A DNA stretch of 63,605 bases, the filler included, from Stramenopiles sp. TOSAG23-6 (lineage: Eukaryota), in the NCBI GenBank assembly GCA_900128565.1. It is 11 parts of 11 records of this genome, joined end to end, with 100 filler letters (N's around TTAATTAATTAA, not from the genome) between each part and the next. Parts side by side here need not be neighbours in the genome. Positions count along the whole stretch, not along the records: positions 1 to 7,466 come from LT636562.1; positions 7,567 to 15,009 come from LT636563.1; positions 15,110 to 22,543 come from LT636564.1; positions 22,644 to 30,064 come from LT636565.1; positions 30,165 to 37,577 come from LT636566.1; positions 37,678 to 45,088 come from LT636567.1; positions 45,189 to 52,583 come from LT636568.1; positions 52,684 to 60,069 come from LT636569.1; 3 more parts are not named here. One strand, given 5' to 3'. The notes below the pieces were generated by a model. That model saw only the letters and a program-made list of their open reading frames with translations. It was not told where the DNA came from and searched no databases. This document shows, piece by piece, positions 2,249 to 61,249 of the stretch; the stretch's first letter is position 1, and each line of letters starts with the position of its first letter. A program made the translations under genes and the position numbers.

Positions 2249-3795
2249 TCATAACTCTTGTTGTTGACGACTACGTGATTTGGGTATCGATTCCAAGTGT
2301 TTGTATGATTCAGTTTTCATAAAAGTTTTCAAATCACTTAGTAGTGTTATATACGGCTTGTGAAAATGTGTGATTCCAGATACTACGCCGCTTTCAGGAT
2401 CCGGAGTACTAGTCACTTGATGCCACCAAATTGCTGGAATATATAGAATATCACCTTCATGTACTTCGCAATTGACAATGCGCGCATTTGAAAATTTAGG
2501 ATATTTCTTAAGATCGGGATTTTCAATATTTACTGGACTAAATGGAGTAAGATTTTTTTCATCGAAAAGAATTTCGTAGAATCGCCCTTCATCATTCATA
2601 TATTTTAGAAAAATATTTCAAAAAAACAAATTAAAATTTGTTAGGTACAAAATTTCGTACTAAAAAAAAAATCGAAATTGAAAAAAGATAAAACATTCAT
2701 GACGTCATTTCCAAGAATATCTTTTTCAAATTCATAAAATCTGTATTGGCTACGAATACTTGAATGTTCATTCGAGAAATAAACTTCTTCATTTTGAGTT
2801 GGGTGAATCAAATTGAAAACTTTTGTACCAGATATAACCACATGAAAATTTTCATAAGCATCATGGTGCAAAGGAGCTTTCACAGGTTGTTCACTAGTCC
2901 ATAATAGCTGATTCTGAAGTAAAAGTTGAGGAGATATCATAGTAGTAATTGCTGGCATTATATCTTCCATTACCTCACCCCATAGAGAAAGTGGATGCTT
3001 TTGTAAATAAACACTCATCTTACGACGTCCTTTGTCGTCAAATTTCTTTGCAATATCGGATAATCGCAAGTAATCTGAAAACGTAATCTCGTTTTCAGCA
3101 GGTCGGTCCATAACGATTTCTTGAGTCTCGAGATGTTTTGCAACCTCATATTCTCCCAAAACATCACCTGGTTTAATTGAAACGATGTATGTCCGCAGAA
3201 GCTTGTGTCCGATTTTTTGGTTTAAATAGGTTTTGTTTTTCCACAGATATTGTGCTTTCCAATCTTTCACTGCACCTGTAATAATAACTGGTTTGCTCTT
3301 CTGAACATACTCCTTGAAAAAGCGATCTTTATTTTCTATAAATGTAGTACTATCTACACGTTCACATTTGGTGTATTTTTTGGACGGCAAGGAGCCAGTA
3401 ATATCTACCAAGTCATCGATGGCAATTGGTTTTTTTTTTGGAAGACTTTGTAGCCAGAGATACTGTAAAACAAGGTTGTATTCATTCAAAGAGCACACAC
3501 CGGGAATTGGTGAATGTGTGAGCAGAGGGGTACTGGCTGTACGATTACACACTTGGTCAGATATTTGATGAGCACTCAGTGATTTGACGTCAATTTCAGC
3601 CACATACCTATCAACTAGTGCTTTCACTTTTGTATTATTCTTGTGCAAAGGATGTAACGCGTGAGGTGGAAAATTTGAGTATTTTTTATCAACTTTGAAA
3701 CGGCGGTTTACAGCATCTTGAAACGAACAAATCGCTCTTCCTACCAATGACAGGAAAATATAGAGAAAAATCACAACGACCGTTGCCAATTTCAT
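2249..3795 (-). CDS. JmjC/cupin-like 2OG-Fe(II) oxygenase with signal peptide, 2 exons
   Basis: KPVIITGA, LHHDAYENFH, EGDILYIPAIWWHQV motifs split over two ORFs joined across intron 2598-2698. Confidence 0.85.
2598..2698 (-). other. Motif-family intron ending in AT (donor GAATGT, or GTTTTA if slid 4 nt)
   Basis: GTACGAAATTTTGTACCTAAC core; removal gives in-frame DV-M-NDE; flanking ATGAATG direct repeat makes the exact register ambiguous. Confidence 0.8.
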
Positions 3796-3991
3796 GTTCT
3801 ATTTGATTTTTATTCGAAGAGGTTGTAAGTAAATTAATATAGGGTACCTCTCGAGTTGTGACTCAAAACTTTGACAGGACAGCTTCGTTTTTTTGTTACC
3901 AGGTACCAGTACTATCGGATCTCGTCTCGAATTTCCGTAAATTTTTGAAAGACAACAAGTGCTAAAATAGAATGAAAAAGAGTTATGTGGC

Positions 3992-4768
3992 ATGTCAAAT
4001 CTAAACCAGATACGTATACTTGTTGTTGGAGATAGTGGGGTAGGTAAAACTTGTCTTATACATCGAATTTGTCATAAGAAAGCACTGGAGAATCCCGGTT
4101 GGACGGTTGGATTTGAAGTAAATGTGCTCTGTCGACAATACAACATGGGAGACGCTGAATCAGGTTCTTGCTACAGCTTATCGAGTGAGTCTTCTTCACT
4201 TATGGAGAATGAGTCTCTACAGTACGTAGAATTCATTGATATATCTGGACATGAAAAGTATAAGCTTTCTCGTTCATTTATTTACAAAGATGTAGACGGA
4301 ATAATATTCTGCTATGACACTTCGAACTCAAAGTCCTTTTACAACATAAAACGCTGGTCCGAAGAAATTTCGAAAGAGACAAGTGGATATTCTGAAAAAA
4401 ATGTACAAAGAAGAAATAGTCATAATCATAACAACTGGAGGGGAATTGATACTGGGATTACACATCGTAAGGTACATTCTGAAAAAACTTTAGACAGTAA
4501 AAAATATAGTTACAAATTACCAAGTTGCCCCATAATAGTTATTGGTAATAAATTGGATTTGCTATCTCCAGCAGCACGTGAGGGTTTTAAACATCCACAT
4601 TTACCAGCTGGAGGACTTGGATTTAACAACAGTAATAATCTTGAATTCTGTGTTTGTAGTTCCTTGGATCCGTTGATAATGTCCCTTCGAGTTCGCGAGA
4701 AACTGCGTGAAACTCTTGACTCGTTTTATTTGCGTGTTCAAACATCAAAACAAAATAATTTATTGTAG
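3992..4768 (+). CDS. RABL3: Rab-like protein 3 family small GTPase
   Basis: GDSGVGKT P-loop, WTVG, DISG, IGNKLD; no C-terminal prenylation motif. Confidence 0.75.
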   Translation: MSNLNQIRILVVGDSGVGKTCLIHRICHKKALENPGWTVGFEVNVLCRQYNMGDAESGSCYSLSSESSSLMENESLQYVEFIDISGHEKYKLSRSFIYKDVDGIIFCYDTSNSKSFYNIKRWSEEISKETSGYSEKNVQRRNSHNHNNWRGIDTGITHRKVHSEKTLDSKKYSYKLPSCPIIVIGNKLDLLSPAAREGFKHPHLPAGGLGFNNSNNLEFCVCSSLDPLIMSLRVREKLRETLDSFYLRVQTSKQNNLL

Positions 4769-6195: not shown

Positions 6196-6233
6196 ATACA
6201 CCACATAATAAAATAATAACGTTATAGTTCCCT

Positions 6234-7566: not shown

Positions 7567-7655
7567 TTTTTTTTTTTTTTTGGTTTTTTTTTCGTAGGGA
7601 ATTTTGTACCTAACATTTTTTTTTTTTTTTTTGTTAAATTAATTTCACAATATAT

Positions 7656-9184: not shown

Positions 9185-11948
9185 TTAATTGTTGATTTGA
9201 ATTTTATCTTTGCAAGTAGTTGAATTATTTGAATTGAACGTTTCACATTGGCACAAACCTGGTTGTGGTAACGGTGGTGATGGCGTTGGAGATGTAATTT
9301 TGCAACAATTTAAATTGGTGTCACTACAATCCGGCAAAGTCCAGTTGAAATCAAACGTTTTTATAAATGACCAAAAATTATTATGAATTTGGTTACAATT
9401 TTGTTGGTCTTGTTGAGTAAATGTGATATTTTGTAGGGTAAACTTTGAAAGTTTACCTAATTTTTGTTGTTCGGTTGGAGTAAAAGATGGCAAACAACCT
9501 GACATGTCTTCTAAGGTCATTTCTTGTAGATGTATTTTGGAAAAATATTTCAAAAAAAAATTCGTTAGGTACGAAATTTTTTTACGAAAAAAAACCAAAA
9601 AAAAAAAAATTCGATTTTTTTGTCAAAAAAAACAAAAATAAAACATACATAATGTGCAAAATGATGTTCGGTGTTGTCAAAGATCATGTCGAAGAATACA
9701 TCAAGGGTGACGTTGGTTGGTGCTTTTATTTTGATATTGTTTACGTGATAAAATCTTGACGATATTATGTAAAGACATATTTTAGGTATATAATTATATT
9801 TCATCATTAGGTACAAATTTCTATGCTATGAAAAACTAAAACTAAAACTAAAAAAAAAAAAATGATATGAAGAATAAAATTGTAAAAAAAGAGATTAGGG
9901 TTAGGTGTAGAGTTTTAGGGTTTATGTGGAAAAAACATACCTGTATTGTCACAAAGAAATCGACGTTGGCCTGATAGTTCTTCCTTACACCACTTCATCA
10001 GATCGTTTGTTGTATTTCCATTTTTTTGTCCTATAGTATCAGGAAACAACCGTTGTAGAACGCTAATCGCATTTTTTTGGTATTTCCCAATCTCTTTCAT
10101 AGTGTTAAGCGTTTTGTTCTGCGCAGTAGTCAATTGTTGTAGTTCGGAATTGTTAAGGTTAAGGTCAAAGCATTGCTGAGTGGCACTGAGCAATTCTTGA
10201 AATTCCCCGAAATCAACTTGAAAATCATCATACAACCGCCGACGTCCAGAAACGTCTTGTAAAGGTGTTGTACTTGTCCATGAGATATCCGTTTGTGGAC
10301 CAGATCCGTCTACACTTGAAGGTGATGCAATCATCGTTCTTCCATCAACTTTAATCTTTTCCTTCTTGCATTTCATATAACATAAACCCAAAATTTCTTT
10401 AGGCCTCTGTTGTAGTTTACAGCCTTGACTGAAAGTGAGCCTTTGATCAACTTGAATATCACCACATTGGTCCGTTACAACACTTTCGTCACCAGGTGAT
10501 TTTGCAGCACATGAAACTCTTAAACTCCCATCGCAAATACTGTAAGGAGAGCCTTCATACACATTTAAAGATGCATAATAAGAAACAGCAGAGGCTCCTG
10601 CAATTACAATTAAATAAAGTACATAAATTAAATATGGAGATCGTATACCACTCTTATACTTCATTATCATTACACTATTCCCAGCATTATAATCAATCAT
10701 ATCCTTCTTACCACTCTTGATAAATTTCAAAACTCTTTCTGCTGCTTCTGTATTTTCATTAATTTCTAAAGCATAATCATTAATACATTTAAATTGGTAT
10801 AAAATTATCATCAATAAGATATTATCATAGGCTAAATTTTCTTGCTTTAGCAGTTTTTCCTTTGAGAAATACACACTGATAAATAATCCACCAAAAACTC
10901 CAATCACCACAATTTGGCGATTCAACATTTGAAACATATTGTGCCATTTACATGTCTCATTCGCTAATGCGTAATGATCTGTGATTAATTTTTCTTCTTT
11001 CTTATGAGTATACTCTCTTGACGACCTCGCTTTTCGTTCATTCTTGTTCAGTGTATGCAACGCTTTGTTGTGCGCATGAGTAAATACTGTATACAATCCC
11101 ATTGAAAGAAGAGAGAGAATCAAGGGAACAAAGAGAAAAAGGGCGTGATATTTAGATGAAGAGCCAAGAAGTACACTAATACAAATGATTATCAGTACTG
11201 ACTTGACGAGGTTTGCGAAGCCATAGAAATGGATTCGCCCCATTTTTTGAATGTCATTTGATAAAACTCTACTCTGATGTGGATCATCTAACTCAATACT
11301 ACTATGAATACAATTTTCCAAAGTAACTTGAAAAAGATTTGACGTTTTGACTAATAGAGATTCCCCCACAAACTCATTCAAGGTGTACAGAAATGCCGCA
11401 ATCATCATGTACACAGTTAAGGGGTATATCTTCACATTTCCTCTAAATTTGTCTGGATATGAACCTGCATATGCTTCGAGGCAAAATGTAATTACACTAA
11501 CAGCCATGATCATTATTATCAATTGAACTTGTAGAGAAAGAAATCCGAGAAGCATGTCACGTATGTTGTACACATTGCACTTGTTTATAATATGTCGTAC
11601 TCTGTATATTATCCAGTGGGGTGGTTTTGCGATTCGTGGAGCCTTTAGTAGTGGTACTAACTTTGGATGGTGGCTGTCTCCTGAGGTACGCGACGACCGA
11701 CGATGTCTTCTGTGTGGAGAATCGCGGTTTGAACGAGATTCGCGACTCAAACTGCGTTCTCTGGGACGACTTGAATCAGGTTGGTCACTCGAGCTTCGTT
11801 CTGTGTAAAAAATAGAATGACGTCCTTGACCGGAGTGAGGTTGTTGTTGTTGATGATGGTGATGATGACGTACGTCAAGTTCAACTTTATCTCCCTCTCC
11901 AACAGCTGCTGCTATTGGATTTTCTTGGTATTCTTCATTGTCCATCAT
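9185..11948 (-). CDS. Multi-pass membrane protein: ABC-transporter-like TM domain plus Cys-rich C-terminal region, 3 exons
   Basis: SRVLSND and AAERVLKFI with several TM helices; exons 11948-9941, 9776-9649, 9529-9185. Confidence 0.6.
9530..9648 (-). other. GT-AT intron, motif family
   Basis: TAT|GTATGTTTT...CGTACCTAAC...AAAATACAT|CTA; FAHY-LQEM. Confidence 0.8.
9777..9940 (-). other. GT-AT intron, divergent family member
   Basis: CAG|GTATGTTTT...GTACCTAAT...AAAATAT|GT; acceptor chosen by frame. Confidence 0.6.
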
Positions 11949-13769: not shown

Positions 13770-14923
13770 TTACAAAAAAAGTCCAATAATTAGACATATT
13801 ACAATCAATGAAGCGGACATAAAGACTTTCATTGAATGATGACGAATTTCTATCACAATTTGATCCGTTTCTTTATCCCATAACGTAGACATTTTCATAC
13901 GTAATAAACGACTTTTTTTTGAGTATATGTATCGTATCTCATCATTTTCGCGTTTTGTGTTTTTTTGTTTTGTTTTTTTATCATGTTTTTCATTGCGTGT
14001 TTGTTTTTTTTTGTATCTTGTAAAAACAACGAGAGGTTTCAATGATTCATTATGATTTGTAACTCTCTGAAAGATTTCAGATATATTTTTATCCTGAACG
14101 TATTGCCATTGTTTTATAATGGATTGAAAATATTTTTTAATATATGAAATATTTTTAATTTCGTTTTCAAACTGTTCATCAGAATGTTTGATTTCGTGTT
14201 CAAACGGTCTATCATGATTCATTTGTTGAAAACGTTCAAAATGTTTCGATTCTTGTTTCGATTCTTGTTTCGCTTCTTGACGACTATTTTTAGTACTAAA
14301 TATAAATGCATCTCGTTCTTCATCATTTTTAAATTTCAAAAAAGTATATGTATTTTGGAAAAATATTTAAAAAAATTTTGAAAATTTGTTAGGTACAAAA
14401 TTTTTTTACCAAAAAAAAAAAAAAAAAAAAATTTTTTTTACCGAAAAAAAAAAAAAAACATACATTGATGATCTTTCTTATATTTCTTAATTTTTTTTGC
14501 AAGACAAAAAAAAGCTGCCTTGAGTGTAATCCAACATGCAGTCATCTTCATTGCTTTTAATTTTTCAAAATGACCACCAGATTGTATAACATCCATCAAA
14601 TCATATTTAGATAGACAAATTATTGTTGAATATGTAAGACACGTGGCATTATATAGTCTATTATATGTATTGTGAAAAATATATTTTTTTTTTTTTTTTT
14701 TTAATTTTTTTTTTTGGAATTAAAATTGTTTTTGTTAGGTACAAAATTAACTACGAAAAAATATTTTACTAAAAATAAAAAACATACATGAATCTAAAAC
14801 AATATCTTGACCTAAATACGATCCATTGCGCAACACAGAGCTTCTGTACCCCACCAAACCTTTTTTTATGATATACATATTCTCATTTTTTTCACCATAT
14901 TTTATAAGCTCTTCTAGAGGAGG
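13770..14923 (-). CDS. Cyclic-nucleotide-binding domain protein (ion-channel-like C-terminus), 5'-partial; exons 14923-14788, 14664-14464, 14347-13770
   Basis: Spliced translation PPLEELIKYGEKNENMYIIKKGLV...GSYLGQDIVLDSYNRLYNATCLTYSTIICLSKYDL fits the cNMP-binding pattern; mostly absent from the ORF track. Confidence 0.75.
14348..14463 (-). other. GT-AT intron, motif family
   Basis: CAAT|GTATGT...AAAATACAT|AT; phase 1 restores frame. Confidence 0.8.
14665..14787 (-). other. GT-AT intron, motif family
   Basis: TCAT|GTATGT...CAATACAT|AT; lies inside the cNMP domain. Confidence 0.8.
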
Positions 14924-15211
14924 ATGAATTTGGAAAAATATTTAAAAAAAAATCTAAAAAAATTGTTAGGTACAAAATTTTTTTTTTCGTAAAAAAAAAA
15001 AAAAAAAAANNNNNNNNNNNNNNNNNNNNNNNNNNNNNNNNNNNNNNNNNNNNTTAATTAATTAANNNNNNNNNNNNNNNNNNNNNNNNNNNNNNNNNNN
15101 NNNNNNNNNTTTTGAAAAAAAATTAAAAAAAAAAAAAAAAAAATTGTTAGGTACAAAATTTCGTATGAAAAAAAAAATCGATTTTTTTGTTATAAAAAAA
15201 ATAAAACATAC

Positions 15212-16344
15212 GGGTCCTGCATTTCCTAAATGATTTTGTCTCGATGCAGCAGATAATTCACAATCTGGTGTCTTTCCATTTTTAGTTTCGGTAAATGCAG
15301 TCCAAGTACCTTGGCAAGTTTCCTGTGTAATACCTGCGTCATTACCACCGTTGACACATCGATACATGTATTATGAAAAATATTTTTCAAAAATTTGATT
15401 TTTTTGTTAGATACGAAATTTCCTACGAAATAAAAATTGATTAGAATTAAAAAAAAAAACATACTTTGTTTTTACGTTTCCACTTTCAGACTGATAATAA
15501 TCACACCAATCTGTGTTTGATGTTAGAATAGCGACATCTCTCCATGGTGTCTGTAACCAATATGGGTAATAATCACGTTCTTCGGGGCATTCAAATCCAC
15601 TTCGATTTCCATTCGGATTTTGTCTCGTGAATCTCGCGTCATTTCCGTTAAGATCTTGGTCAGCGACGTAAAGCCCTTTATTTCTTTCAGTATTTTGACA
15701 GGTTTGATACCATGCCAAATTTTCATTCATACCATACTCTGTATCAGTCGCTGTATTTGCACTAATTGTATTTGTGCCATCGTTGTTGTTTCTTTGGAAT
15801 TGTGCCTCTTGATACAGAGGCGCGTTATTATTTCCCTGATTATTTACGTTTTGCAAATTCCCAGATGGATAGCCGTCCCGCAATCCTGGCATTGTATCTT
15901 CACAAGCGTACTGAATTACAAAGTTGCAGTTTGTGGATGGGTTATCTCCGCATGCATGCTGGTTCGTCCACTCCAAGTTCAGAAGAGAACCTTCGTAATA
16001 CTCTGCAGGGTCTGGGGCATTCTGAAGTTCACGATTTCCGCGCCAAGGATATCCTCCTTTAGCCTGTTTAGTAAAGATGATAAAAAATTGCAAGATGTTA
16101 AGTACGTTGGCGTGAAATATTCAATGTATACGTGAGACCATGTGATATATCGTAAAAACATAGTGAAATATGTAGAAATTTGAAGTACATTATTCTGGGA
16201 ATCGAATAGACGGTTGTCATTATTTCGGTTATTGTTTCGTTCACGATTGCGGTTATTTGATCCAGGCGGATTGTGCATATAAACATCTGCTTGACACTTT
16301 ACAACAAGCAAAACGCATACGTAAAATTGTAGAGTAGTCGTCAT
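15212..16344 (-). CDS. Secreted DD3-3-like protein, 3'-partial; exons 16344-16189, 16063-15465, 15365-15212
   Basis: Signal peptide, ADVYMHNPPGSNNR, RLFDSQNN-AKGGY, ECPEERDYYPYW motifs. Confidence 0.75.
15366..15464 (-). other. GT-AT intron, motif family (GTATCTAAC variant)
   Basis: AA|GTATGT...AATACAT|G; KTK-YRCVN. Confidence 0.8.
16064..16188 (-). other. Canonical GT-AG intron without the family motif
   Basis: AAT|GTACTT...TTACTAAACAG|GCT; restores QNN-AKGGY. Confidence 0.85.
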
Positions 16345-22543: not shown

Positions 22544-22696
22544 NNNNNNNNNNNNNNNNNNNNNNNNNNNNNNNNNNNNNNNNNNNNTTAATTAATTAAN
22601 NNNNNNNNNNNNNNNNNNNNNNNNNNNNNNNNNNNNNNNNNNNTACGAAATTTTGTACCTAACGATTTTTTTTTGAAATATTTTTCCAAAATACAT

Positions 22697-37512: not shown

Positions 37513-37677
37513 ACGTATTGTTAAAAAATATTTCAAAAAAAAATCGTTAGGTACGAAATTTCGTATGAAAAAAAAATNNNNNNNNNNNNNNNNNNNNNNN
37601 NNNNNNNNNNNNNNNNNNNNNTTAATTAATTAANNNNNNNNNNNNNNNNNNNNNNNNNNNNNNNNNNNNNNNNNNNN

Positions 37678-38023: not shown

Positions 38024-39438
38024 ATGGTTCTTAGAGGTTCGGTAACGAAGCCTGATGTTGGTGTAAAGGAAGTTTTACGGAAGTCCAGTGATGCAATTAT
38101 CGAACGTAAGGCTAAGGAAGCTGCTTTTCATATAGAGTCGGAAGCGTTATGGACCCGCTTAGAAAAAACAGCGGAGAATCAACAGGAATTAACACAGGCG
38201 GAACTTTATTCCTTAATTCATCGCCTACATTCACGAATCCAGTTGTTGGAGGATGAAAGAATTGCCGCTGAAAAGTATGCGGAAGAACAATATGCCGATG
38301 TCACCCGTGTTTTCAAGCAGCTACTCTGCGGCGGTCTCGCCGGTTGTGTAGCTCGAAGTTGTGTAGCACCAATTGATAGAACGAAGATTCTTTTACAGAC
38401 TCAAGCATTGACATTTGCTAACGAGGGTAAAGTTAGTGGACCAAAGTATCGGGGAATATTCCATACATGGCGTGTTATAATCAAGGAGGAAGGATTCAAA
38501 AAGTTATGGCGTGGAAACGGAGTTAATTGCATACGTGTAGCTCCGTATGCCGCTACTCAATTTGCTTCCTATGACTTTTACAAATCTTTAATATCTAGTA
38601 ATGAAAATCTTACAATCCCCAAACGTTTATTATGTGGTGCATTAGCTGGTGCAACTGCTACAACAATAACACACCCTCTAGATGTTATTCGGCTTAGATT
38701 AGCAGTATGTTTTATTCTTTTTCAAATTCGAATTTTTTTTTCGTACGAAATTTTGTACCTAACGAATTTTTTTTTAAATATTTTTCCAAAAAACATGTTA
38801 CACCAAGTCTTGATGGTTTTCAGGATGCATTACGTCACGTAGTCAAGGAAAATGGATTTCGTTCCTTATACAAAGGTTATGTACCCACATTACTTTCATT
38901 GTCTCCATTTATAGCGATTAATTTCTCCGCGTTTGATATTTTCAAAAGGATTGCCTATCCTGAAGGTCCATCTGGAGGTTGGTCAGCCCATGTACGTTTT
39001 CAACATTCATTTTTTTTTCAATTTTTTTTAGTACGAAAATTTGTACCTAACGAATTTTTTTTCGTACAAAAATATATATTTTTTTCATTTTTTTTTTCAT
39101 ACGAAATTTTGTACCTAACGATTTTTGTACTACAAACATTTTTTTTCACAAAACATCCTTTTCTTACTTTAACTTTGGGTGGTTGTGCAGGTCTTGTTGC
39201 ACAAAGCTGTTGCTATCCACTAGATACTGTCCGACGACGAATGCAATTACCTGGTACGCATTATAAATCTGTGTGCGATGCTTTTGCTACTATACCAAAG
39301 AAAGAAGGGATAAGAGGTTTATACAAGGGTATGCTGCCAAATGCGGTAAAGATTGTACCTAATAATGGAATTCGTTTCTTGGCATATCAGTTTTTTAAAG
39401 ATATTTTTGGTGCAGAAAAGAAAAAATATGAAAAATAG
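38024..39438 (+). CDS. Mitochondrial carrier (SLC25) protein, 3 exons
   Basis: Three Px[DE]xx[KR] motifs: PIDRTK, PLDVIR, PLDTVR. Confidence 0.92.
38705..38796 (+). other. GT-AT intron, motif family
   Basis: GCA|GTATGTTTT...AAAAACAT|GTT; RLRLA-VTPSL. Confidence 0.85.
38992..39156 (+). other. GT-AT intron, 165 nt, in-frame and stop-free, with two copies of the motif
   Basis: CAT|GTACGTTTT...AAAACAT|CCT; removes a poly-Phe insert from carrier repeat 3. Confidence 0.8.
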
Positions 39439-40714: not shown

Positions 40715-41480
40715 TTATAACGAAATATCCGAATTCCAAGTAGTATCATTATGAATACATATCTTTGTCGTAGCATAATTTTCTATAGCTTCCTCCACAG
40801 TCCACTGGCGTTTCCCCAAGTGAGCACTGACATTATTATGCATGTATTGTGAAAAAAATGTCAAATTTGAAATTTATTAGATACCCCAAAAAAACCTTTT
40901 GACTTTCATATGGAGAAAAAATAAATAATTTCAAGATGAAAACGTACATTTTTACTATAAACGAGCGTAATCGTATACGCGAGGAACATGCTAAATCTAG
41001 ATCAATATCCTTCAAGTATTCCTTTAGATGGTATCCACAATCACCACATGGTAACATATATGGAAGACTTACAAAAAATGTTTTGCAGTGATCAATATGA
41101 GCCATGTCTGGCTTGTCACTAAAATTTGCAGCCATTGTATGAAGTAAATTCCATGCAACAGGACCCCAAGCTATTGGCTCAGCACTAACAACAGAAGTAC
41201 ATGTCTTCGCCCCTCGCTGAAGGGCACTACCTATTTCAGAACTACCCGTAGCCGACAGTGCAATATCATTTGACGCAGGTAAACATACCCTGGCCGAGTT
41301 GTCTTTTCTATTTGCGTTTTTTGAGCTACGCAGTGCGAGTGTGTCATATCCTGGACTAGACCAAAGCCACGCAATTCTTATAAATAATATAAGAGTACAC
41401 ACAAGAGCACCATACTTTAATTTTACATACTTTTGGGTCATTCGTTTTGAATTATCCATCGTTGCTTGAGAATATATCAT
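40715..41480 (-). CDS. Erv1/Alr-family sulfhydryl oxidase with N-terminal TM anchor, 2 exons
   Basis: WGPVAWNLLH, LPCGDC, and spliced KMHNNVS. Confidence 0.85.
40842..40947 (-). other. GT-AT intron (GTATCTAAT variant)
   Basis: AT|GTACGTTTT...CAATACAT|G; restores the HNxV motif. Confidence 0.85.
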
Positions 41481-41812: not shown

Positions 41813-43256
41813 ATGCCTCGTGGAGTGAAAGCGGTATCCGCCACCAAAAGTAAACAAAAGGCAACAAAGAAGACTCGGAAAAAAACTGCGGCTGATGTAA
41901 TAACAAAAAAAAAAGCACGAAGAAAAAAAACAAACAAACCAAAGATTTCTTCTTCCCTTTCCCACAAAACGCTGGTAGACGATTTGAAGCACGTTCGAGA
42001 TTTTGCTATTACGCTTAGACATAAAGCAAAGTTTTATTTACCACCCACACTCCCAGAACTTGGTATCTTTGACGCAAAAGAAGTTATTCAAAAATCTCCA
42101 TCAAAAATGCTCGATGAGATTGATTGCCTCATATCAAGTTTACTCTCAACGGTACTTGGTGGAGGAAGTTTACATTTACGTATACCAAGTCGAAGTGCAT
42201 CCAACCAAGTATACGTCAAAGAATTGCATCGGATTGTTTTAAAAAGTAAATTTCTCGTTCGTAATTTTGACTCCGTCGCAGGTTGTCGAAAAATGGCCAT
42301 TATGATACGTGTTCTAGAACTGATGTATCAAGTACTCACTAAAGGTATTCACATTACAAAGCGTGATCTTTTCTATACTGATGTAAAACTATTCAAAAAG
42401 CAAGAAGAATCTGATGGTGTTCTTGATGACATTGCTTGTGTATTGGGCTCTACTAGAACGTATGTTTTATTTTTTTTTGAATTTCGAATTTATTTTTTTT
42501 CGTACGAAATTTTGTACCTAACAATTTTTTTTTTTTTTTTTTTGAAATATTTTTTCACAATACATGTGTCTCGGAGTCGTTGCATCCGAGAAGGGCGTTG
42601 TTGTTGGTAGAATTAGTTTCAAAGAAGCAGGCGATGTCATTGACTGTACTAAAATGGGCGTATCAGGGAAAGCTGTACCTGCATATATAGATCGACTCAC
42701 TGATTTAAAATCAGATGCAGAGTTTGTACTTTTGATTGAGAAAGATGCTGCGTATATGCGGTTAGCTGAGGATCGTTTTTATAATAAATACCCATGTATT
42801 CTTATTACCGCAAAAGGACAACCGGATGTCGCTACTCGTCTATTTCTAAGAAAAATACACGATGAATTACATTTACCAATATTAGGCTTATTTGATGCAG
42901 ATCCTTATGGTCTGAAAATTCTCTCTGTGTATGGTGCTGGTTCTCGAAGTATGAGTTATGATAGTGCTAGTCTTGCTACACCAGGGATAAAGTGGTTAGG
43001 TGTTAGACCGTCAGACTTGAATAAATATAACATTCCAGAGCAATGCAGACTTCCAATGACAGATGCAGATATTAAAGCTGGAAAAGATATGTTAGAAGAT
43101 CCATTAATATCATCCAATCCGGCTTGGCATAAAGAATTAAAACTAATGGTCAAATCAAAGATGAAGGCAGAAATTCAGGCTTTATCAGCGTTTGGCTTTC
43201 AATATTTGACTGAAGAATATTTACCACGTAAAATTCGAGAGGGTGATTGGATATGA
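41813..43256 (+). CDS. TOP6A: DNA topoisomerase VI subunit A (SPO11-3 type), 2 exons
   Basis: [37 protein letters not shown]. Confidence 0.92.
42460..42565 (+). other. GT-AT intron, motif family
   Basis: AC|GTATGTTTT...CAATACAT|G; gives [15 protein letters not shown], colinear with the family pattern GCTRSSLxVVASEKG. Confidence 0.9.
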
Positions 43257-43336: not shown

Positions 43337-45029
43337 CTATGAACTACTGCTTTCACTATTGGGCTCCTCACTTGTATGACTTGAATTATTACTCTCCTCA
43401 TCATCAGCAGCTACCATTTGTTTCTTAGATGCAAACTTGTCAACATTTGCAACATCTTTACCAGCTGCACAATCTTTGATCCATTGAATTTGTTCCAACT
43501 CCCATTGCTCCTCTTTCAGTAATACTTTCTCTGCCATTCTAACACGTTTTTGGTGCTCTTCCGGTATATATGGCCACCATGCAGGGACAGCATTACACTT
43601 TTGTCTCCACTCGCGCAGAAGTGCAAGCTCCTTTATCCTCTCTTTCATTTCTGTTGGGTGGGGTTTTTCTATTTTTTCGCCGTATACTATCATAAATATT
43701 GTTCCACGCCTTGGTGTTGTTGGGCGTTCCTCTGGTAACGTTGGCATACTCAAAGGATTTCCTTTCCAGTTGTACTTTTTCGTAAACCAGTCTCTCAACT
43801 CAGGCGATTTCGACATAAAATCAAGGGAGTTGCGAAGCAAAATCAGCCAATTTCCATTACCCCACATAAATGGAGTTTTTTCGGCTTCTTCGCAAATTTT
43901 AGGAGCCACAAAGCGACATTGTTCTTCATCCTGATATCCAGCACGTCGCCATGCAACCTTTACAAGTTGGTTACGCCATGTCACAAGTGTTTCAATAGCA
44001 TCAAGTGTATATGTATTTTAGAAAAATATTTCAAATTTGTTTTTGTTAGGTACAAAATTTCGTACGAAAAACAAATTCATACAAAAAAAAAATAAAACAT
44101 CCATCCTCGAAGTGTACAAAGATATTTCGTTGTTTTCTTAAATGCTCTTTGTTTTTCAGTGTTCACAATTGCTGTGGTGTATATAGTTGAAGCATTTTTT
44201 ATCATTTCTTGTAATTCTTGTAGTGCCTCTTCGTGTTTCATTATTTTTTCTAAAAGCGATGATTCTAATTCTTTGATTTGATTCGACTCTTTTTGTCGAA
44301 TATTTAATTCTTCTTTATCAAAATCTTTTGTATTTGTCTCATTGGTTGGTTCGTATGTAGAATTAATGCAAGCTTCTGCAATTTTCATTCCAGCTTTCGA
44401 CCATTTTTTATCGTTTATTTTTGATATTTTTGATATTTTTTTTTTATTACTTTTATGAATCTTTCTACGAATATCATGTTTACCACTTAATTGTTGATGT
44501 TTTTTTATTCTATTAGTTTTTTTTTGTTTTGAATGGTCATTTGAATGCTTCTTGTTTGCATCCCACACTGTTTCATTACCATTTACGTTGATATCTACCC
44601 AAGGCTCTCTTGGGGGAGGCTGTATATACTTTTTTACTCTCTTTTTTTCTTTCAATGATGAAATTGGTTTTGACCAACGTTTTTCAAGAATATTTAATTT
44701 GTTGATTTCGTGAACAAAATGTCTCACAAATTCTTTTGGTGTTCGCATTTCACACTCCTCGAATTTATTCTCAAACTTCAATCCAAGAGATCTTCCATCA
44801 ACATAGATTATGAAAAAATATTTCAAAAAAAACTCGTTAGGTACAAAATTTTGTACGAAAAAAAAATAAATTCGAAATTAAAATGAAAACGTACATTCAC
44901 CCTAATAACTTTTGCAGGGTGCCAAATTTCTCCAACAATAGCTGGTGTAAACATTGATGGGGATCTAAATCTACTTTGCACGCGTTGGCCAACTTTGTAT
45001 CGCTTAGGTCTTCTTTTAATTGCCCTTGC
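43337..45029 (-). CDS. Hypothetical protein with a Tudor-like segment, 5'-partial, at least 3 exons
   Basis: Three ORFs joined in frame across family introns; YKVGQRVQSRF...WHPAKVIRVN-VDG. Confidence 0.6.
44011..44102 (-). other. Motif-family intron with apparent GG-AT ends
   Basis: GGAT|GGATGTTTT...AAAATACAT|AT; RG-Y-TLDAIE. Confidence 0.65.
44803..44894 (-). other. GT-AT intron, motif family
   Basis: AAT|GTACGTTTT...AATCTAT|GTT. Confidence 0.8.
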
Positions 45030-45286
45030 ATACGTTTTGGAAAAATATTTCAAAAAAAAAATCGTTAGGTACAAAATTTCGTACGAAANNNNNNNNNNNN
45101 NNNNNNNNNNNNNNNNNNNNNNNNNNNNNNNNTTAATTAATTAANNNNNNNNNNNNNNNNNNNNNNNNNNNNNNNNNNNNNNNNNNNNATTTTTTTTTCT
45201 AGGAATTTTCCATGTATTTTTTTTTTTTTTGTTTTTTTTTTTGTTTAGGTATAAAAATTTGTAAATAAATAAATAAGAAAACATAC

Positions 45287-46520: not shown

Positions 46521-49500
46521 ATGTATCTACGTATATGTAGTATTGTGCTATTATGTACNCTCATCATCGATACACTTGCGATGGAAAAGGTACCAACGNC
46601 AACGACAAAAAAAGCAATTGACGTCGCAACACTAAACCAGAAGTTAAAAACAATCGTTGAGCAAGTAGACGTAGCCCTTCCCAAATATCTTGCACAATCC
46701 GAACATTCAAGAAATATAATTCAACAGAGCGCNCGAGATCTTTGGCCATTATCAATGCCAGAGGTGCATATTTATGGCTCTGCAGCGACTGGATTATTCA
46801 TTCCTGAAGGTTCTGACGTTGATCTTCTCATTGACTTTCCTGGTATGAACGACCCAAAAATTTTTGAAAAACGTGCACTACTAACCATACTACTCAAACA
46901 TTTACAGTCAACGAACATGCTGCAAAACTTAAACGACTCTGGTTACTTTTCAATTTACGCAAAGCACCCTGTATTAACTGTTACCCTCAAGAACAACGTA
47001 GAGGTTGATATAGCCATTCGGTGTNTACAAAGCCAAGCCCTGGAGACTGTTGACTACGTCCAAACTGGATTACGCGAACTTTCTTCACACCATGCAAGAG
47101 ATATACTTGTACTCCTAAAATTATATCTTAGGAAAGAAAATGTTTTTAATCCAAAGAGTGGAACCATGGGAAGTTACGTGTTATTTCTACTGTTTAAATT
47201 TTTCGTTGCAAACACGCATCTTGAGCCAACAACACTATTTGAAACATTAGACCTTTTTCTTAATGAATTTGGTACAGAAAGTAAATTAATTGCTTCCGAC
47301 ATTGNGATGCATTTTTCCCCAGATGTATCATATCAAAAGTTCAGCAAACAACAAAATTGGTCTATTTTTATACAAGATCCTTTACTCCCAGCAGAAGAAA
47401 ATGCAGCAGAGATAATGTATAACATACGTCAAGTACAATATCAGTTGACTCGTCTTCAAGATTTGATATTGACGACAAATGTGGAAGATGTTTTTCTGGT
47501 AACTCCCCAAAAGGATATACCAGAAGTCAAGGGTACAGTACACGATGGACGGGGCGAAGCTGCAAAAGAAGAACAACAGGCACCTAATACATCGAAAGCT
47601 AAAGCTACAAGAGAAGAACAACAGGCACCTGATACATCTATAGCTAAAGCTACAAGTGAAGAACAACAGGCACCTGATACATCGATAGCTAAAGCTACAA
47701 GAGAAGAACAACAGGTACCTGATACATCGAAAGCTAAATCTACAAGTGAAGAACAGCAACAATCTAAAGCTACAAGAGGAAAACAAAACGGACCTGCTAA
47801 ATCTAATGTTACATCTAAAAGAAGAAAACAACGGGGAAAACATACATCGAAAGCTGAATCTAACGCTGAAGCTCCAACAAAAATACAACAAGCATCTAAA
47901 GCTCCAAGAACAGCAAAACAAGCAACGGGTGGTCGACGTAGAGCTGGAAGAAGAAAACCATCAAATACGGAAGCTGCTAGAAAACAGCAACAAAAACAAA
48001 ATGCTTTACGAAAACAGCAAGAAAAAAAAGAAAAAGAAGAAAAAGAAGCTTTACGACAACAGCAAGAAAAAGAAAATGCTTTACAAAAAGAACAAGAATT
48101 TGAGGACGCTTTACGAAAACAGGACGCTTTACGAAAACAGCAAGAAAAAGAAAATGCTTTACTAAAAGAACAAGAACNTAANGACGCTTTAAGAAAACAG
48201 CAAGAAGAAACAGAAGTTGCAAGGAAACAACTTGAAAATCAAGCAGCAGCAAGGAAAGCAAGGATACTGCAAGAACAAAACCGAAAAAAAGAAGAGAGAC
48301 AAAAACTAAAAGCAGAAGCTAAAAAAATCGAAAAAGAAGCTAAAAAAANGGAACAAGAAGAATCGAATATGCTGAAAGTATATGGTGNATATAAAATTCA
48401 TCACAATGTACTCAAAACCGTTCTGCAACAGTATGAAACTTCAGCGCAAANAAATGCTTCCCCAGATTCTCCAAAAACTCTACTACTTGCCATACAAAAA
48501 GATCGAGACAGAGTTGTTACTACTATTGACACATTTGAAACGTTTGTTACTAAACATCAATTGATTCAAAAAGAAGCTAAGCCGTTTCTTATCGAAATGA
48601 AAAAGAAATTTAAATCTATTCGTCAACAATCCAAAGTGTATATTAAACTACTTGAATCGAAGATTGCTATAGAAGAATCACAGATTTCTATACAAAAAAC
48701 TGAACAAGACATNCTTGAATCNCAGATTGCTATACAAAAANCAATGATTTCTATACAAAACGCTGAAAAAGANGTANAAGNCNAACAATTCGTAAAAGAC
48801 AAACAAGAAAAAGATGAAAATGATACAGTATTGTATGGACCACAAATGAAACCTGAAGGAATAAGTACAAAAAAACAAACGCCTCAACCAGAACCAGTAG
48901 AATCCAACACAGCCACAGTTGTAGCGACTAGACATCAAGATTTTTTAGGTACAAAATTTCGTACGAAACAAAATCAAGATGAATCTTCTCCTCCTCCTTA
49001 TTCTGATGTTGCTTTGGGTATAAGCTTGGACGATTATGTACGTTTATTTACATTTTTTTTAACAAATTTTTTTTTCTCAAAAAAAAAAAAAGAAAAATAT
49101 TTTTGTACGACATGTTGTACCTAACAATATATATATATTTATATATAGTTCACTATAAAGACCATTNAGAAACATACGGATATAAACAAATTGTTCTTTG
49201 TCCATGTAGTATACAACATATTAACTAAAGAAAGTTTATTAGATATATATGGATTGACACGTTTCGTTTCAGAGAGTATGGCCAAAGACATGAAAAGTGT
49301 GATTTCTCTTTCAAGACGTTTAATTCCATATTTAATCGAAAACGATTATTTATGTCTAATTGTGTCGCCTAAGGGCCTTTTTTTTAAATTGGGAGGTAAA
49401 GTCTTTCGAGGTGTTCCCCCTGCCTTTCAAATATTGCTCCTAACTGAAGATCCATCCTCTTTTACAAATGTATGTTTTTTTTTTTTTACACCCTAACCCT

Positions 49501-50528
49501 TTTTCAATTTGTTTTTCATTTTTTTTTCATAGTAAATTTTGTACCTAACAAAATATACAAAAAATACAAAACAATTAAAAATATTTCATCAAAATACATG
49601 TCATGAATCAAGCANCAAACGTCATTTTTAACCCAGAAGAAAGTTCACACTCAAATAATCCACTTCGAAATCTTCTCATTCATACTTTACGAAGACAAGA
49701 AATAATTGCATTTAGTGATGTTCATGAAAATGCAAAAAACGCAAAAAACGCAAAAAACGCAAAAAACGCAAAAAACGCAAAATTTCGTGTAGATAAAACA
49801 TCTCAAAAATTTCAAAAATCTGTTGTTTATANTAATCGCGATNATGACAAATTAATGGCTTTTGCTATGAGTTTATTTAATCGTTNGAAGACAATTAGAT
49901 TTGAGTTGCATACAAACGATCCTGCTANACATGTAAGTTAACCCTAACCCTAAACCCTAACCCTAAAGTTTTTCAACATGAATTTAAAAAAAAATGTTGA
50001 AAATATAGAGAAGATTTTTTTGTTTTTTTGTTTTTGTAGCAAATTTTGTACCTAACGAATTCTACATTTGGTATACTTTTTCATACCACATGAAGTTCGC
50101 ATGATATTAAGGGAATCTTATGATAAGACAATTGTACGTTTACATCATTTATTTAACTTTTACAGTTGTCTTTTACACAATTGAATTGATTTAACTATTT
50201 TTTTTTNACTTTTTNATCTATANTTTTTTTTTTACATTTCATATGAAATTTTGTACCTAACAAAAAAACACATAATTTGACATATTTTCATCTGTATAGA
50301 ATTTCAAATCGGTTTTTGAGCTTCCAAAAGACAATGCTACAGTGGACGCTTTAAAGGAGTACGTAACAAAAAATCAAAAAAAAAAATATTTTTCTAAAAT
50401 TTTAAATTTTTTTTTCATACGAAATTTTGTACCTAACAAAAAATCAAAAAAAAAATATTTTTCTACAATACATGTTAGGGTATTTCATTCCTCACTTAAA
50501 GAAACAAGATGCTTGGCAAATGCACCAT
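46521..50528 (+). CDS. Pol-beta-type nucleotidyltransferase (PAP/TUTase-like) with repeats, coiled coil and a multi-exon tail
   Basis: IYGS.ATGL..EGSDVDL, VDI, GTMGSY, IQDP...N; introns 49038-49148 (AG), 49470-49599 (AT), 49933-50091 (AT), 50134-50299 (AG), 50359-50473 (AT); final exon unresolved. Confidence 0.7.
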
Positions 50529-51005
50529 GTACATTTTCATTATGAATTTCAATTATGAATTTCAATTGTTAGGTTTGTTTTTTGAAAAATTTTAAAAACA
50601 ATTTCATACGAAATTTTGTACCTAACAAAACATCTTTAAAACTTTGAAATATTTTCCTATAGTCCATGATTTGATATTTGGATTGCGATTTTCAGAAAGT
50701 GTGTTCGGTAGACATATCTATGAGATGATTGGGTATTGGTCAGCGGGGTTGTAATTTTATCTTTTTTTTAATTGAAATAAAATTTGTAATACAACAAATA
50801 ATAATAATAATATTTGGTGACTTTTTTGTCCTAGTTAGGGTTAGGGCTATATTTTAAAAAAAAGACAGCCGTTGAATCTTCCGGAGGATCTTCTTCGAGC
50901 TCTACTACTATAGCTATACGTAGTATCTGCACTGTTCATTAAACTATAGTTTACAAATAGATAAGAGAATATTTTTGAGAGATTCAATACCTTGTACAAT
51001 CAACA

Positions 51006-56596: not shown

Positions 56597-56719
56597 TCTT
56601 TGGAACATGAAAAGAAGAAAATCGAAACAATTGTTTTTGACTTTTTATATAAAAGAGTGTTATCCATTACTAAAAATAATTCAAAGTGCAAGTTTATTTC
56701 ATAATCTACAGAATTCACT

Positions 56720-59900: not shown

Positions 59901-60169
59901 TCAAATACATTGGATAATTCAGTAACAAATACATTGGATAATTCAGTAACAAATACATTGGATAATTCAGTAACAAATACATTGGATAATTCAGTAACAA
60001 ATACATTGGATAATTCAGTAACAAATACATTGGATAATTCAGTAACAAATACATTGGATAATTCAGTAANNNNNNNNNNNNNNNNNNNNNNNNNNNNNNN
60101 NNNNNNNNNNNNNTTAATTAATTAANNNNNNNNNNNNNNNNNNNNNNNNNNNNNNNNNNNNNNNNNNNN

Positions 60170-61249
60170 TCATCATCATTATTATTATCATCATCATCAT
60201 TATTATTATCATTATCATCATCATCATTTTCCGATATTGATAAATTATATTTCTCCAATAACACTTCTAGAGGCAAAGCTGCCTCTTCGATAATATCTCT
60301 TAATTCACATTTAATATTATTTCTATATTCCTTTGCTTTTTTTTTACTCCTTGTATTTTCCTCTTCTATTTCCTCAATTGTACTTTCATCATCGTCTAAA
60401 ATTTCAAAATCTGAAATTTCTGAATCAATCAAATTTTCATTCGGTAGTACGTATGCTCCTCTGATGTCACTTTCAGGAACATTTTCACTAGGTGTACCAT
60501 CATCAAATAAAAGGTTGTATGTTCGTTGAATACTGTTAAATGAAACAATTTTTGAAATATAGTATCCCGTATATTTTGGATCATTGCCACCATTCCATCT
60601 CGCTTCCACTGAATCACCAATATTAAATAAAGGTTTTTCAGATATTCGATTGTCTTCCTCCATTCGCTCTAATGCGGAATTTATCCACTCATCCCCAATA
60701 GAACGACCAGAAATACGATTTTTCCTACTTAATTTTTGAGGTGTATACAAATCCTTTGTTTTATGCGTCAAATTTGAAGCAAGCATCGTTGATAATTCTT
60801 CAGTTTGCGATACAAGGAAATCTAACTGTTTATCCATAACCTTTGCCCGTGCTGCCATTATTTTACTATTTTGTTTAAATTTGACAATCTTATCTATTTT
60901 AATCCAAAACGAAGAAACATGTTTCCATATATGTACAATAAAAAATATTAAAAAATTTAAAATTCGTTAGGTACGAAATTTTCATGGTAAAAAAACAATA
61001 ATTTGAAATTCATGAAGAAAGACTTACGTGTTTGGCTAATTTTTTACGTTGTACAATTTGTTTTGCAATTTTTTTCTTCAAATTATATTTTTGTTTTTTA
61101 TGCCAACTCAAAACTTTTCTAACAGTTTTTTTTGCACCAATTTTTTGTGTTCGACATTCTCTCTCAAAATCTTTAGCAAGCCATTGCAACTCTGCCATAA
61201 CAAACTCCCAATGTCGTTGCGTTGGATGTATTTGGGGTTGCTTTACTTT
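60170..61249 (-). CDS. SWR1/SRCAP-like HSA-domain fragment with a Tudor-like insert, partial at both ends
   Basis: HWEFVMAELQWLAKDF...FW.KI.K...MDKQLDFLVSQTE. Confidence 0.75.
60931..61027 (-). other. GT-AT intron, motif family
   Basis: CAC|GTAAGT...CGTACCTAAC...TGTACAT|ATATGG; LAKH-IWKHVSSFW. Confidence 0.85.

What the first reader, a model, noticed from the sequence alone, without database searches (positions are those of the whole stretch)
2598..61027. Most introns in this genome end in AT rather than AG (GT-AT splicing as the majority class)
Seen: 22 of 27 introns with both ends placeable restore the reading frame when cut after ...AT (mostly AATACAT), in all three phases and on most of the unlinked contigs. 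Six more acceptor-only cases next to contig ends also end in AT (7655, 14924, 22696, 30005, 30241, 45030). Conserved proteins fix the register: TOP6A 42460-42565, Erv1 40842-40947, SLC25 38705-38796, saposin 32187-32277, SWR1-like 60931-61027. In TOP6A the first two AGs after the branch motif are out of frame. Established: the 3' AG is almost invariant for the U2 spliceosome (U2AF35 recognition, G+1/G-1 interaction). Inference: a spliceosome with altered 3' splice-site specificity. I do not recall a described lineage with GT-AT as the dominant class but cannot search the literature.
Basis: partly seen in the sequence, partly recalled or inferred. Interest (0 to 1): 0.96.

Follow-up and report, generated by a model that had tools for sequence, protein, structure and literature searches.

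The report
Introns ending in AT, not AG
In this marine protist DNA most of the short introns begin with the usual GT but end with AT instead of the near-universal AG, many are close copies of one another, and this makes the organism a rare natural test case for how cells recognise the end of an intron.

Summary
The window is 11 short contigs of an AT-rich eukaryote whose proteins look stramenopile. I placed 24 introns with both ends: 21 end in AT and 3 in AG. Six of 7 acceptor-only intron ends at contig edges also end in AT. A frame-blind motif fit gave acceptors that restore the reading frame in 16 of 17 introns with long flanking frames (p about 3e-7). The TOP6A and SLC25 junctions align without gaps to homologues only when cut GT..AT. 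Two metatranscriptome contigs carry the spliced Erv1 and second SLC25 junctions, but both also allow an AT-AC register. Six introns allow neither AG nor AC at the 3' end in any register.

Many of the introns are copies of one about 95-nt repeat (core copies 80% identical), like introners. The exon end before GT is also AT in 14 of 22. And 3' AT is already in print as the commonest 3' site in Fritillaria tunicates. A public gene model of the SLC25 gene forces GT-AG and is visibly wrong.

Best reading: U2-like spliceosomal introns with YAT in place of YAG, spread by an introner-like element. The machinery itself could not be tested.

The parts
2598..2698 (-). Intron in the Cupin_8 gene. Reads GAATGT..ATAT in the consensus register; GT-AT is possible at shift +4 and AT-AT at shift -2.
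   Evidence: in frame, 366 and 115 open codons either side; Cupin_8
9530..9648 (-). Intron GTATGT..ACAT; exon end AT
   Evidence: in frame
9828..9940 (-). Divergent intron GTATGT..TCAT. Overall identity to the other introns is at shuffle level.
   Evidence: first in-frame acceptor with a long frame
14348..14463 (-). Intron GTATGT..ACAT
14665..14787 (-). Intron GTATGT..ACAT
15366..15464 (-). Intron GTATGT..ACAT. No register gives AG or AC at the 3' end.
27458..27549 (-). Intron in the SPEF2-like gene, GTATGT..ACAT. No register gives AG or AC. 92% identical to the intron at 38705-38796.
30882..30975 (-). Member of the same repeat family that ends ACAG (GT-AG). Its exon end is also AG.
32187..32277 (+). 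Intron in the saposin-like gene, GTACTT..ACAT
36086..36184 (-). Intron ending ACAT. The donor is tentative (GTTGTC at 36184, in frame).
36639..36783 (-). Intron GTATGT..TTAT with a duplicated 5' part
38705..38796 (+). First SLC25 intron, GTATGT..ACAT. The junction is fixed by a gap-free alignment to 13 homologues. No register gives AG or AC.
38992..39156 (+). Second SLC25 intron, GTACGT..ACAT, with a duplicated branch module. The spliced form is seen in RNA.
   Evidence: X9 record 26: 38847-38988 joined to 39154-39251
40842..40947 (-). Erv1 intron, GTACGT..ACAT. Both spliced and unspliced forms are seen in RNA contigs.
   Evidence: X12 record 5: 40716-40840 joined to 40947-41184; X8 record 18 unspliced, 0 differences
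42460..42565 (+). TOP6A intron, GTATGT..ACAT, with no AG inside. The junction is fixed by homology.
44011..44102 (-). Intron GGATGT..ACAT (GG-AT, or AT-AC at shift -2)
44803..44894 (-). Intron GTACGT..CTAT
49038..49148 (+). Intron GTACGT..TATAG (GT-AG). An in-frame AT at 49175 is an alternative acceptor.
49470..49599 (+). Intron GTATGT..ACAT
49933..50091 (+). Intron GTAAGT..ACAT containing CCCTAA runs
50134..50299 (+). Intron GTACGT..TATAG (GT-AG)
50359..50473 (+). Intron GTACGT..ACAT. No register gives AG or AC.
50529..50667 (+). Intron GTACAT..CCAT. The AG 5 nt upstream runs into a stop codon.
60931..61027 (-). Intron after the HSA-domain exon, GTAAGT..ACAT. GT-AT is the only possible register.
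7567..7655 (+). 3' part of an intron cut by the contig start; ends ATAT
22644..22696 (+). 3' part of an intron cut by the contig start; ends ACAT
30165..30241 (+). 3' part of an intron cut by the contig start; ends ACAT
30005..30064 (-). 3' part of an intron cut by the contig end; ends CCAT
14924..15009 (-). 3' part of an intron cut by the contig end; ends TCAT
45030..45088 (-). 3' part of an intron cut by the contig end; ends GTAT
37513..37577 (-). 3' part of an intron cut by the contig end. The consensus position reads ACGT, not AT, and the acceptor is unresolved.
15110..15211 (-). 5' part of an intron (GTATGT plus branch motif) cut by the contig start
40681..40780 (+). Partial copy of the element (branch module and 3' part, no 5' splice site) lying outside any intron

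Best explanation
These are real introns removed from RNA, built like U2-type introns. They have a GTATGT-like 5' end, a TACCTAAC branch motif with a bulged A, a T-rich tract, and a 3' end 33-51 nt after the branch A (one at 70 nt). The last base is T instead of G, so the 3' site reads YAT (mostly ACAT) rather than YAG.

Many of them are copies of one about 95-nt element. I read that element as an introner-like mobile sequence that brings its own 5' site, branch site and T-tract.

The AT at the 3' end is matched by AT at the end of the upstream exon in most cases. I read this as a 2-nt target-site duplication, or as an AT|G insertion or proto-splice site. Either way, removing the element plus one AT restores the gene.

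The organism's spliceosome accepts both YAT and YAG. Introns with no overall similarity to the repeat also end in AT, so the rule looks genome-wide rather than private to one element.

Shown: the termini, the reading frames, two spliced RNAs, and the repeat family. Inferred: U2-type machinery, changed 3'-site recognition, and a transposon origin of the AT.
For: Termini and frames:
- 21 of 24 full introns and 6 of 7 acceptor-only ends are AT.
- 16 of 17 introns with long flanking frames are in frame at acceptors placed without using frames.

Homology:
- TOP6A aligns without a gap to 13 homologues across the junction.
- Both SLC25 junctions align without a gap to 13 homologues. The public GT-AG model P0121 carries a 9-column insertion at the first junction and lacks 11 residues at the second.

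RNA:
- Spliced contigs X12 record 5 and X9 record 26 carry the Erv1 and second SLC25 junctions.
- Unspliced contig X8 record 18 reproduces both ends of the Erv1 intron with 0 differences.

Registers:
- Six introns (15464, 27549, 38705, 42460, 50359, 61027) allow no AG or AC 3' end in any register. 61027-60931 allows only GT-AT.

Splicing signals:
- 5' hexamers are GTATGT 10, GTACGT 6, GTAAGT 2, others 4, of 22.
- The distance from the last CTAAC/T match to the 3' end was 24-70 nt in all 22 introns, and 33-51 nt in 20 of them.

Repeat family:
- nhmmer with one intron as query finds 13 other places at E below 1e-3.
- The alignment shows conserved blocks.
- Eight core copies are 80% identical on average, against 63% after shuffling.
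- Divergent introns at shuffle-level identity still end in AT.

Exon ends:
- The exon end is AT in 14 of 22, against a background of 11% (p 5e-9).
- Exon end equals intron end in 14 of 22, including the AG intron 30975.

Copy number:
- About 1000 RNA contigs per run lie on the contig, piled on the intron repeats.
Against: - Both RNA-confirmed junctions also fit an AT-AC register. No RNA contig seen covers an intron whose register is unambiguous.
- No snRNA or splicing-factor gene could be examined, so 'U2-type' rests on motifs alone.
- The target-site-duplication reading fails for 8 of 22 introns. Only 4 of 22 match over 3 nt by my reading. The terminal inverted repeat is only 4-6 nt.
- Two of the three AG introns do not have AG at the exon end.
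- The sample is 63.6 kb. Contig ends fall in these repeats, so the assembly may over-sample them.
- Several introns in 49038-50667 have short exons and Ns, and were placed by hand.
Confidence: 0.65

Rival explanations
1. The introns are handled by an expanded and transformed minor (U12-type) spliceosome, which is known to tolerate 3' ends other than AG, as in Physarum.
For: - GT-AT is a known non-canonical U12-type boundary. It makes up 17% of 1,425 non-canonical introns in Physarum, most of them U12-type (10.1101/2020.10.12.336362, passages read).
- 5' conservation here runs to position +9 (GTATGTTTT) and differs from the Physarum variant GTATCTTT at one base.
- The branch motif is long and nearly invariant, as in U12 introns.
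Against: - The 5' site has G at +5 and lacks ATCC.
- Branch-to-3' distance is 33-51 nt, not about 10-26 nt (the U12 figure is recalled).
- A long T-tract follows the branch site.
- No U11, U12, U4atac or U6atac could be searched for, because no genome is held.
Confidence: 0.1
2. Two classes are mixed. The 13 AT-ending introns preceded by exonic AT are really AT-AC introns (ATGTATGT..ATAC), a boundary pair the spliceosome is known to accept. Only the remainder are GT-AT.
For: - The shift -2 register gives AT-AC in 13 introns, including both RNA-confirmed ones.
- The exon-end AT enrichment (14 of 22) would then be intron sequence.
Against: - The same conserved element would have to be cut at two different places.
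- Six introns cannot be AT-AC and are still in frame as GT-AT, two of them fixed by homology.
- The conserved block starts at the G of GTATGT, not at the AT.
Confidence: 0.1
3. The elements are not removed by a spliceosome. They are cut out some other way, either at the DNA level like ciliate internal eliminated sequences bounded by a short direct repeat, or by end-pairing like euglenid nonconventional introns.
For: - A 2-nt direct repeat bounds most elements.
- Elements are short, AT-rich and repetitive.
Against: - Canonical 5' site, branch motif and T-tract are present.
- Folding of 6 introns gives z-scores from -2.2 to +0.4, with no shared pairing of the two ends.
- Changes at 5' position +4 are not matched by changes at 3' position -2 (my reading).
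- Both unspliced and spliced forms occur in RNA libraries.
Confidence: 0.03
4. It is an artefact: assembly or amplification errors turned AG into AT, or these are dead, unspliced pseudogenes.
For: - The assembly is fragmented.
- One contig is a perfect inverted repeat, as amplification chimeras are.
Against: - The same AT is seen at 27 independent sites on 8 contigs.
- An independent 2022 RNA contig reproduces the Erv1 intron ends exactly.
- The frames stay open for hundreds of codons, and two junctions are spliced in RNA.
Confidence: 0.01

Closest known systems
Introner elements (Micromonas pusilla IE, Aureococcus and others)
   Same: - Many short introns in unrelated genes are copies of one sequence.
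- The element brings one splice site, and the other is taken from a short target-site duplication (PMC11282704, passages read).
- They are common in marine protists.
   Different: - In those cases the co-opted 3' site is AG; here it is AT.
- The direct repeat here is only 2 nt and is present in 14 of 22.
- Inverted ends are weak.
- No insertion polymorphism or autonomous partner was seen.
Non-canonical introns of Fritillaria (larvacean tunicates)
   Same: - 3' AT is the commonest 3' site: 44% in F. pellucida and 34% in F. borealis.
- A YAY triplet lies before the 5' site and forms the 3' end.
- A U-rich tract is kept.
- The origin is transposon-like, and the U2 machinery is adapted, with U2AF duplicated (PMC13326754 section 21 read; PMC11282704 passages read).
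   Different: - There the 5' ends are mostly AG or varied and only 5% of introns are GT-AG. Here the 5' GTATGT and the branch site are strongly conserved and a single GT-AT pair makes up about 87%.
- Fritillaria is an animal; this is a stramenopile-like protist.
U12-type introns with non-canonical ends (Physarum)
   Same: - GT-AT occurs.
- The 5' and branch motifs are extended.
- Numbers have expanded massively.
   Different: - There GT-AT is a small minority.
- Here the 5' motif, the spacing and the T-tract are U2-like.
Constrained U2 introns of yeasts (GTATGT / TACTAAC; recalled)
   Same: - The 5' hexamer is the same.
- The branch heptamer is near-identical.
- Introns are short.
   Different: - The branch motif has an extra C (TACCTAAC).
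- The 3' end is YAT.
- Intron density is high, about one intron per 2 kb here.

Membership tests
U2-type spliceosomal intron | 5' GT followed by a hexamer that fits U1/U6 pairing | tested here: met
   20 of 22 start with GT: GTATGT 10, GTACGT 6, GTAAGT 2. The two exceptions read GA and GG in the consensus register.
U2-type spliceosomal intron | Branch-site motif with a bulged A upstream of a pyrimidine tract | tested here: met
   A CTAAC/T match is present in all 22, mostly as TACCTAAC, followed by T runs, 24-70 nt from the 3' end.
U2-type spliceosomal intron | 3' end YAG | tested here: not met
   Of 22 introns: CAT 16, TAT 3, TAG 2, CAG 1.
U2-type spliceosomal intron | Removed from RNA with exact exon joining | tested here: met
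   Two spliced RNA contigs. The other junctions are supported by frame or homology only.
U2-type spliceosomal intron | Dependence on U1/U2/U4/U5/U6 snRNPs | not testable with these tools
   No genome is held. There are no Rfam matches in the window.
Introner (transposon-derived intron family) | Introns of unrelated genes similar over their whole length | tested here: met
   nhmmer hits; alignment A1; core 8 copies 80% identical against 63% shuffled. About half of the 24 are near shuffle level.
Introner (transposon-derived intron family) | Target-site duplication at the borders | tested here: inconclusive
   A 2-nt repeat is present in 14 of 22 (p 5e-9 for exon-end AT). It could equally be a splicing or insertion-site preference.
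Introner (transposon-derived intron family) | Terminal inverted repeats | tested here: inconclusive
   Only GTAT/ATAC is seen, extending to ATGTAT/ATACAT with the flanking AT (my reading). This is short for AT-rich DNA.
Introner (transposon-derived intron family) | Copies outside introns, or presence/absence polymorphism | tested here: inconclusive
   One partial copy lies outside an intron at 40681-40780. Polymorphism was not tested.
U12-type intron | 5' [AG]TATCCTT | tested here: not met
   The consensus is GTATGTTTT.
U12-type intron | Branch site close to the 3' end and no pyrimidine tract | tested here: not met
   The distance is 33-51 nt in 20 of 22, with T runs present.
Fritillaria-type non-canonical intron | Non-GT 5' ends in the majority | tested here: not met
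   20 of 22 start with GT.
Nonconventional (euglenid/diplonemid) intron | Stable pairing that brings the two ends together | tested here: not met
   Six introns were folded: z from -2.2 to +0.4, with no shared end pairing.

The most novel reading that the evidence does not exclude
A free-living marine stramenopile-like protist has re-set the 3' splice-site rule of its major spliceosome from YAG to YAT. This would mean a G at the first intron base working with a U at the last, while still accepting AG. An introner that duplicates an AT target would make every insertion removable, so the mobile element and the core of the splicing machinery would have changed together.
Probability: 0.45. Interest if true: 0.9.

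Novelty: new variant of a known kind. Interest (0 to 1): 0.8.

Why it matters
- **Rarity.** The 3' AG is among the most constant signals in eukaryotic genes. Natural systems that break it are few. The only one I found in print with 3' AT as the commonest end is an animal (Fritillaria), where the 5' ends are scrambled too.
- **A cleaner test case.** Here the 5' site and branch site stay textbook-like and only the last base differs. That makes it a clean case for asking which part of the machinery reads that base.
- **Intron gain.** It would add a case to the argument that mobile elements create introns and push spliceosomes to change.
- **Practical consequence.** Pipelines that force GT-AG mis-build genes in such genomes. 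The public model P0121 of the SLC25 gene adds junk residues and drops conserved ones.

Tried and rejected
- **Whole genome:** none is held.
- **Read laying over 20 kb:** Its joint table is filled with repeat-to-repeat joins, and only three joined records were shown.
- **Metagenome-contig scan for the 17-nt core motif:** 64 loci, none with an intron-like context; all read as chance matches. No extra introns were gained.
- **Rfam at the gathering threshold and at E up to 1:** 0 matches. tRNA scan: 0.
- **Protein search with the expressed orphan exon 44104-44802, looking for junction-spanning transcripts:** no hit in the 128-408 aa range.
- **TOP6A search:** no protein above 76% identity, so no transcript-derived copy of that junction.
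- **Pfam coordinates either side of the first SLC25 junction:** these left a gap of about 5 profile positions and could not fix the junction. The homologue alignment did.
- **Pairing of 5' positions +3 to +6 with the last four bases as the 3'-site signal:** rejected, because GTACGT, GTAAGT and GTACTT introns keep ACAT without compensating changes (my reading).
- **First motif-fitting script:** failed on aligner settings and was rewritten.
- **Automatic donor refinement:** mis-picked two donors, 49980 and 50544. These were replaced by hand reading.
Full report
**What the window is**

The window is 63,605 bases made of 11 contigs joined by N linkers. Eight contigs are about 7.4 kb and three about 1.08 kb. 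GC content is 25-39%. No genome is held for it, and it has no tRNA or Rfam match.

Long open frames under the standard code carry eukaryotic families: FH2 formin, SPEF2, Mito_carr, TOP6A/Spo11, Erv1, Cupin_8, Ras, saposin and HSA.

The best named TOP6A relatives are stramenopiles: Lagenidium at 76%, then Triparma, Ectocarpus and Heterosigma. A public CDS that is 100% identical to the first SLC25 exon carries the source's name eukprot:GSMAST32.ASY1.ANO1.128.1. To me that name reads like a marine-stramenopile label; this is an inference.

The DNA is held by two 2015 runs of one coded organism (0.94 of sampled words). It is also held by 2024 seawater metagenomes (0.34-0.69) and, in part, by seawater metatranscriptomes.

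**The observation**

Branch-like motifs (TTGTACCTAAC) recur on 8 contigs. They sit inside T-rich stretches of about 90-165 nt that interrupt the frames.

I placed the 3' ends without using reading frames, by fitting a consensus 3' motif downstream of each branch motif.

- **Frames.** 17 introns have at least 40 open codons on both sides, and 16 are in frame at that acceptor (15 AT, 1 AG). Chance would give one third (p 2.7e-7). The one miss has in-frame GT donors 8 and 11 nt from the automatic pick.
- **Gene 49038-50667.** Its exons are short and it contains Ns, so I read it by hand. It has four GT-AT and two GT-AG introns.
- **One more intron.** 9940-9828 ends in TCAT.
- **Tally.** 21 AT and 3 AG among 24 full introns. 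Six of 7 ends cut by contig edges are AT, and the seventh reads ACGT.
- **AG acceptors.** Of the 15 in-frame AT introns, 12 have no AG in their last 45 nt. The TOP6A intron has no AG at all.

**Independent fixes of the junctions**

- **TOP6A.** Spliced GT..AT, TOP6A reads [15 protein letters not shown] and aligns without any gap to 13 homologues. The AGs that follow are out of frame.
- **SLC25.** Spliced GT..AT at both introns, SLC25 aligns without gaps to 13 homologues.
- **The public model.** P0121 of the same gene uses forced GT-AG introns at 38743-38807 and 38996-39190; those boundaries are my reading. As a result it carries a 9-column insertion at the first junction and lacks 11 residues at the second.
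- **RNA, spliced.** X12 record 5 joins 40716-40840 to 40947-41184 (Erv1). X9 record 26 joins 38847-38988 to 39154-39251 (second SLC25 intron). Each has at most one differing letter per block.
- **RNA, unspliced.** X8 record 18 covers 40784-41001 with no difference. The Erv1 intron ends therefore stand in a data set independent of the assembly.

**The register problem**

A junction is known only up to shifts of identical bases.

- For 13 AT introns, including both RNA-confirmed ones, the exon ends in AT. An AT-AC reading then gives the same mRNA.
- Six introns allow neither AG nor AC in any register: 15464, 27549, 38705, 42460, 50359 and 61027. 61027-60931 allows only GT-AT.
- The conserved block of the element starts at the G of GTATGT.
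- One uniform cut, GT..AT, explains all AT-ending cases except two whose second base is A or G (2698, 44102). I take that as the most economical reading, but no RNA contig that I saw covers an unambiguous junction.

**What they are**

The anatomy is that of U2-type introns.

- The 5' hexamers are GTATGT (10), GTACGT (6), GTAAGT (2) and others (4).
- A CTAAC/T branch motif is followed by T runs, 33-51 nt from the 3' end in 20 of 22.
- The 3' triplets are CAT (16), TAT (3), TAG (2) and CAG (1).
- The next exon starts with G in 13 of 22.

So the picture is YAG with the G replaced by T.

Many of the introns are also copies of one element. One intron used as an nhmmer query finds 13 other places at E below 1e-3. 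The alignment shows long conserved blocks. Eight core copies are 80% identical on average (73-92%), against 63% after shuffling.

About half of the 24 introns are near shuffle level overall and still end in AT. Examples are 9940-9828, 49933-50091 and 50529-50667. That argues for a rule of the organism rather than a quirk of one young repeat.

About 1000 RNA contigs per run (111 in X12) lie on the 7.4-kb contig at 90% identity or more. They pile up on the intron repeats, so the family is large, though some of those contigs may come from relatives.

Contig ends often fall inside these repeats.

**The exon-end AT**

The two bases before the GT are AT in 14 of 22 introns, against 11% before GT in long frames (p 5e-9). 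Exon end equals intron end in 14 of 22. The family member that ends in AG (30975-30882) follows an exon ending in AG.

This looks like a 2-nt target-site duplication with GTAT..ATAC as short inverted ends. Micromonas introners and Fritillaria introns are described as taking their 3' site from a duplication of this kind (PMC11282704, passages read).

It could instead be an AT|G counterpart of the classical AG|G proto-splice site. The duplication reading fails for 8 of 22 introns, so I hold it at about 0.4.

**Rivals**

- **Transformed minor spliceosome.** GT-AT is a known U12-type variant. However, the 5' motif lacks ATCC, the spacing is long, and a T-tract is present.
- **Mixed AT-AC and GT-AT population.** mRNA alone cannot exclude this.
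- **End-pairing or DNA-level excision.** This finds no support: six folds give z from -2.2 to +0.4 with no common end pairing.
- **Assembly error.** This is excluded by recurrence at 27 sites and by the independent RNA contig.

**What is known**

- My searches found no paper describing a lineage with GT-AT as the main class. 'GT-AT' with introns and non-canonical returned 24 papers, of which I saw the listing of 22. 'GU-AU' returned 2. 'GT-AT' with introner returned 0. 'MAST-4' with introns and splice returned 2.
- Passages of two papers on marine stramenopile single-cell genomes, and of one on plankton genomes, mention no unusual splice sites. Supplements were closed.
- 3' AT as the commonest 3' site is in print for Fritillaria, at 34-44%, with a YAY triplet before the 5' site and at the 3' end and with duplicated U2AF (PMC13326754, section 21 read).
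- I therefore file this as a new variant of a known kind: introner-type introns with a non-AG 3' site. Here the 5' and branch signals stay intact, there is one dominant GT-AT pair, and the host is a protist.

**Verdict**

Noticed in passing
window 52684-60069: The whole contig is a perfect inverted repeat. The arms are 52684-55824 and 56929-60069 (3141 nt, 100% complementary) with 1104 nt between them. It looks like an amplification or assembly chimera rather than biology.
   Followed up: partly
window 39546-40646: An RNA-library contig (X6 record 9) joins 39545 to 40647. The skipped 1.1 kb is bounded by a direct repeat of the SLC25 3' region, so this is a presence/absence difference or a duplication in the assembly. 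Two open frames inside it have no Pfam match.
   Followed up: partly
window 38024-39435 (protein P0121): A public CDS of the SLC25 gene is 100% identical in exon 1 but uses forced GT-AG introns. Compared with 13 homologues it adds junk residues and drops conserved ones. Gene models of this organism in public protein sets are probably wrong at most introns.
   Followed up: yes
window 40681-40780 (+): A partial copy of the intron element (branch module and 3' part, no 5' splice site) lies outside any intron, next to the 3' end of the Erv1 gene on the other strand.
   Followed up: partly
window 49941-49968, 12131-12146, 32563-32585, 50838-50850 and others: Short runs of the telomere-like repeat CCCTAA lie inside introns and between genes.
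   Followed up: no
window 38722-38752 and the same places in other copies: The element holds short perfect palindromes (AAATTCGAATTT, TTTCGTACGAAA). In folds, the GUAC just before the branch motif often pairs with the upstream GUAC.
   Followed up: partly
window 38992-39156 and 36639-36783: Two introns carry internal duplications of element modules: a second branch module in the first and a second 5' end in the second.
   Followed up: no
window 43337-44877 (-): A gene with RNA contigs in three runs has no Pfam family, and its 233-aa exon has no homologue in the 128-408 aa range.
   Followed up: partly
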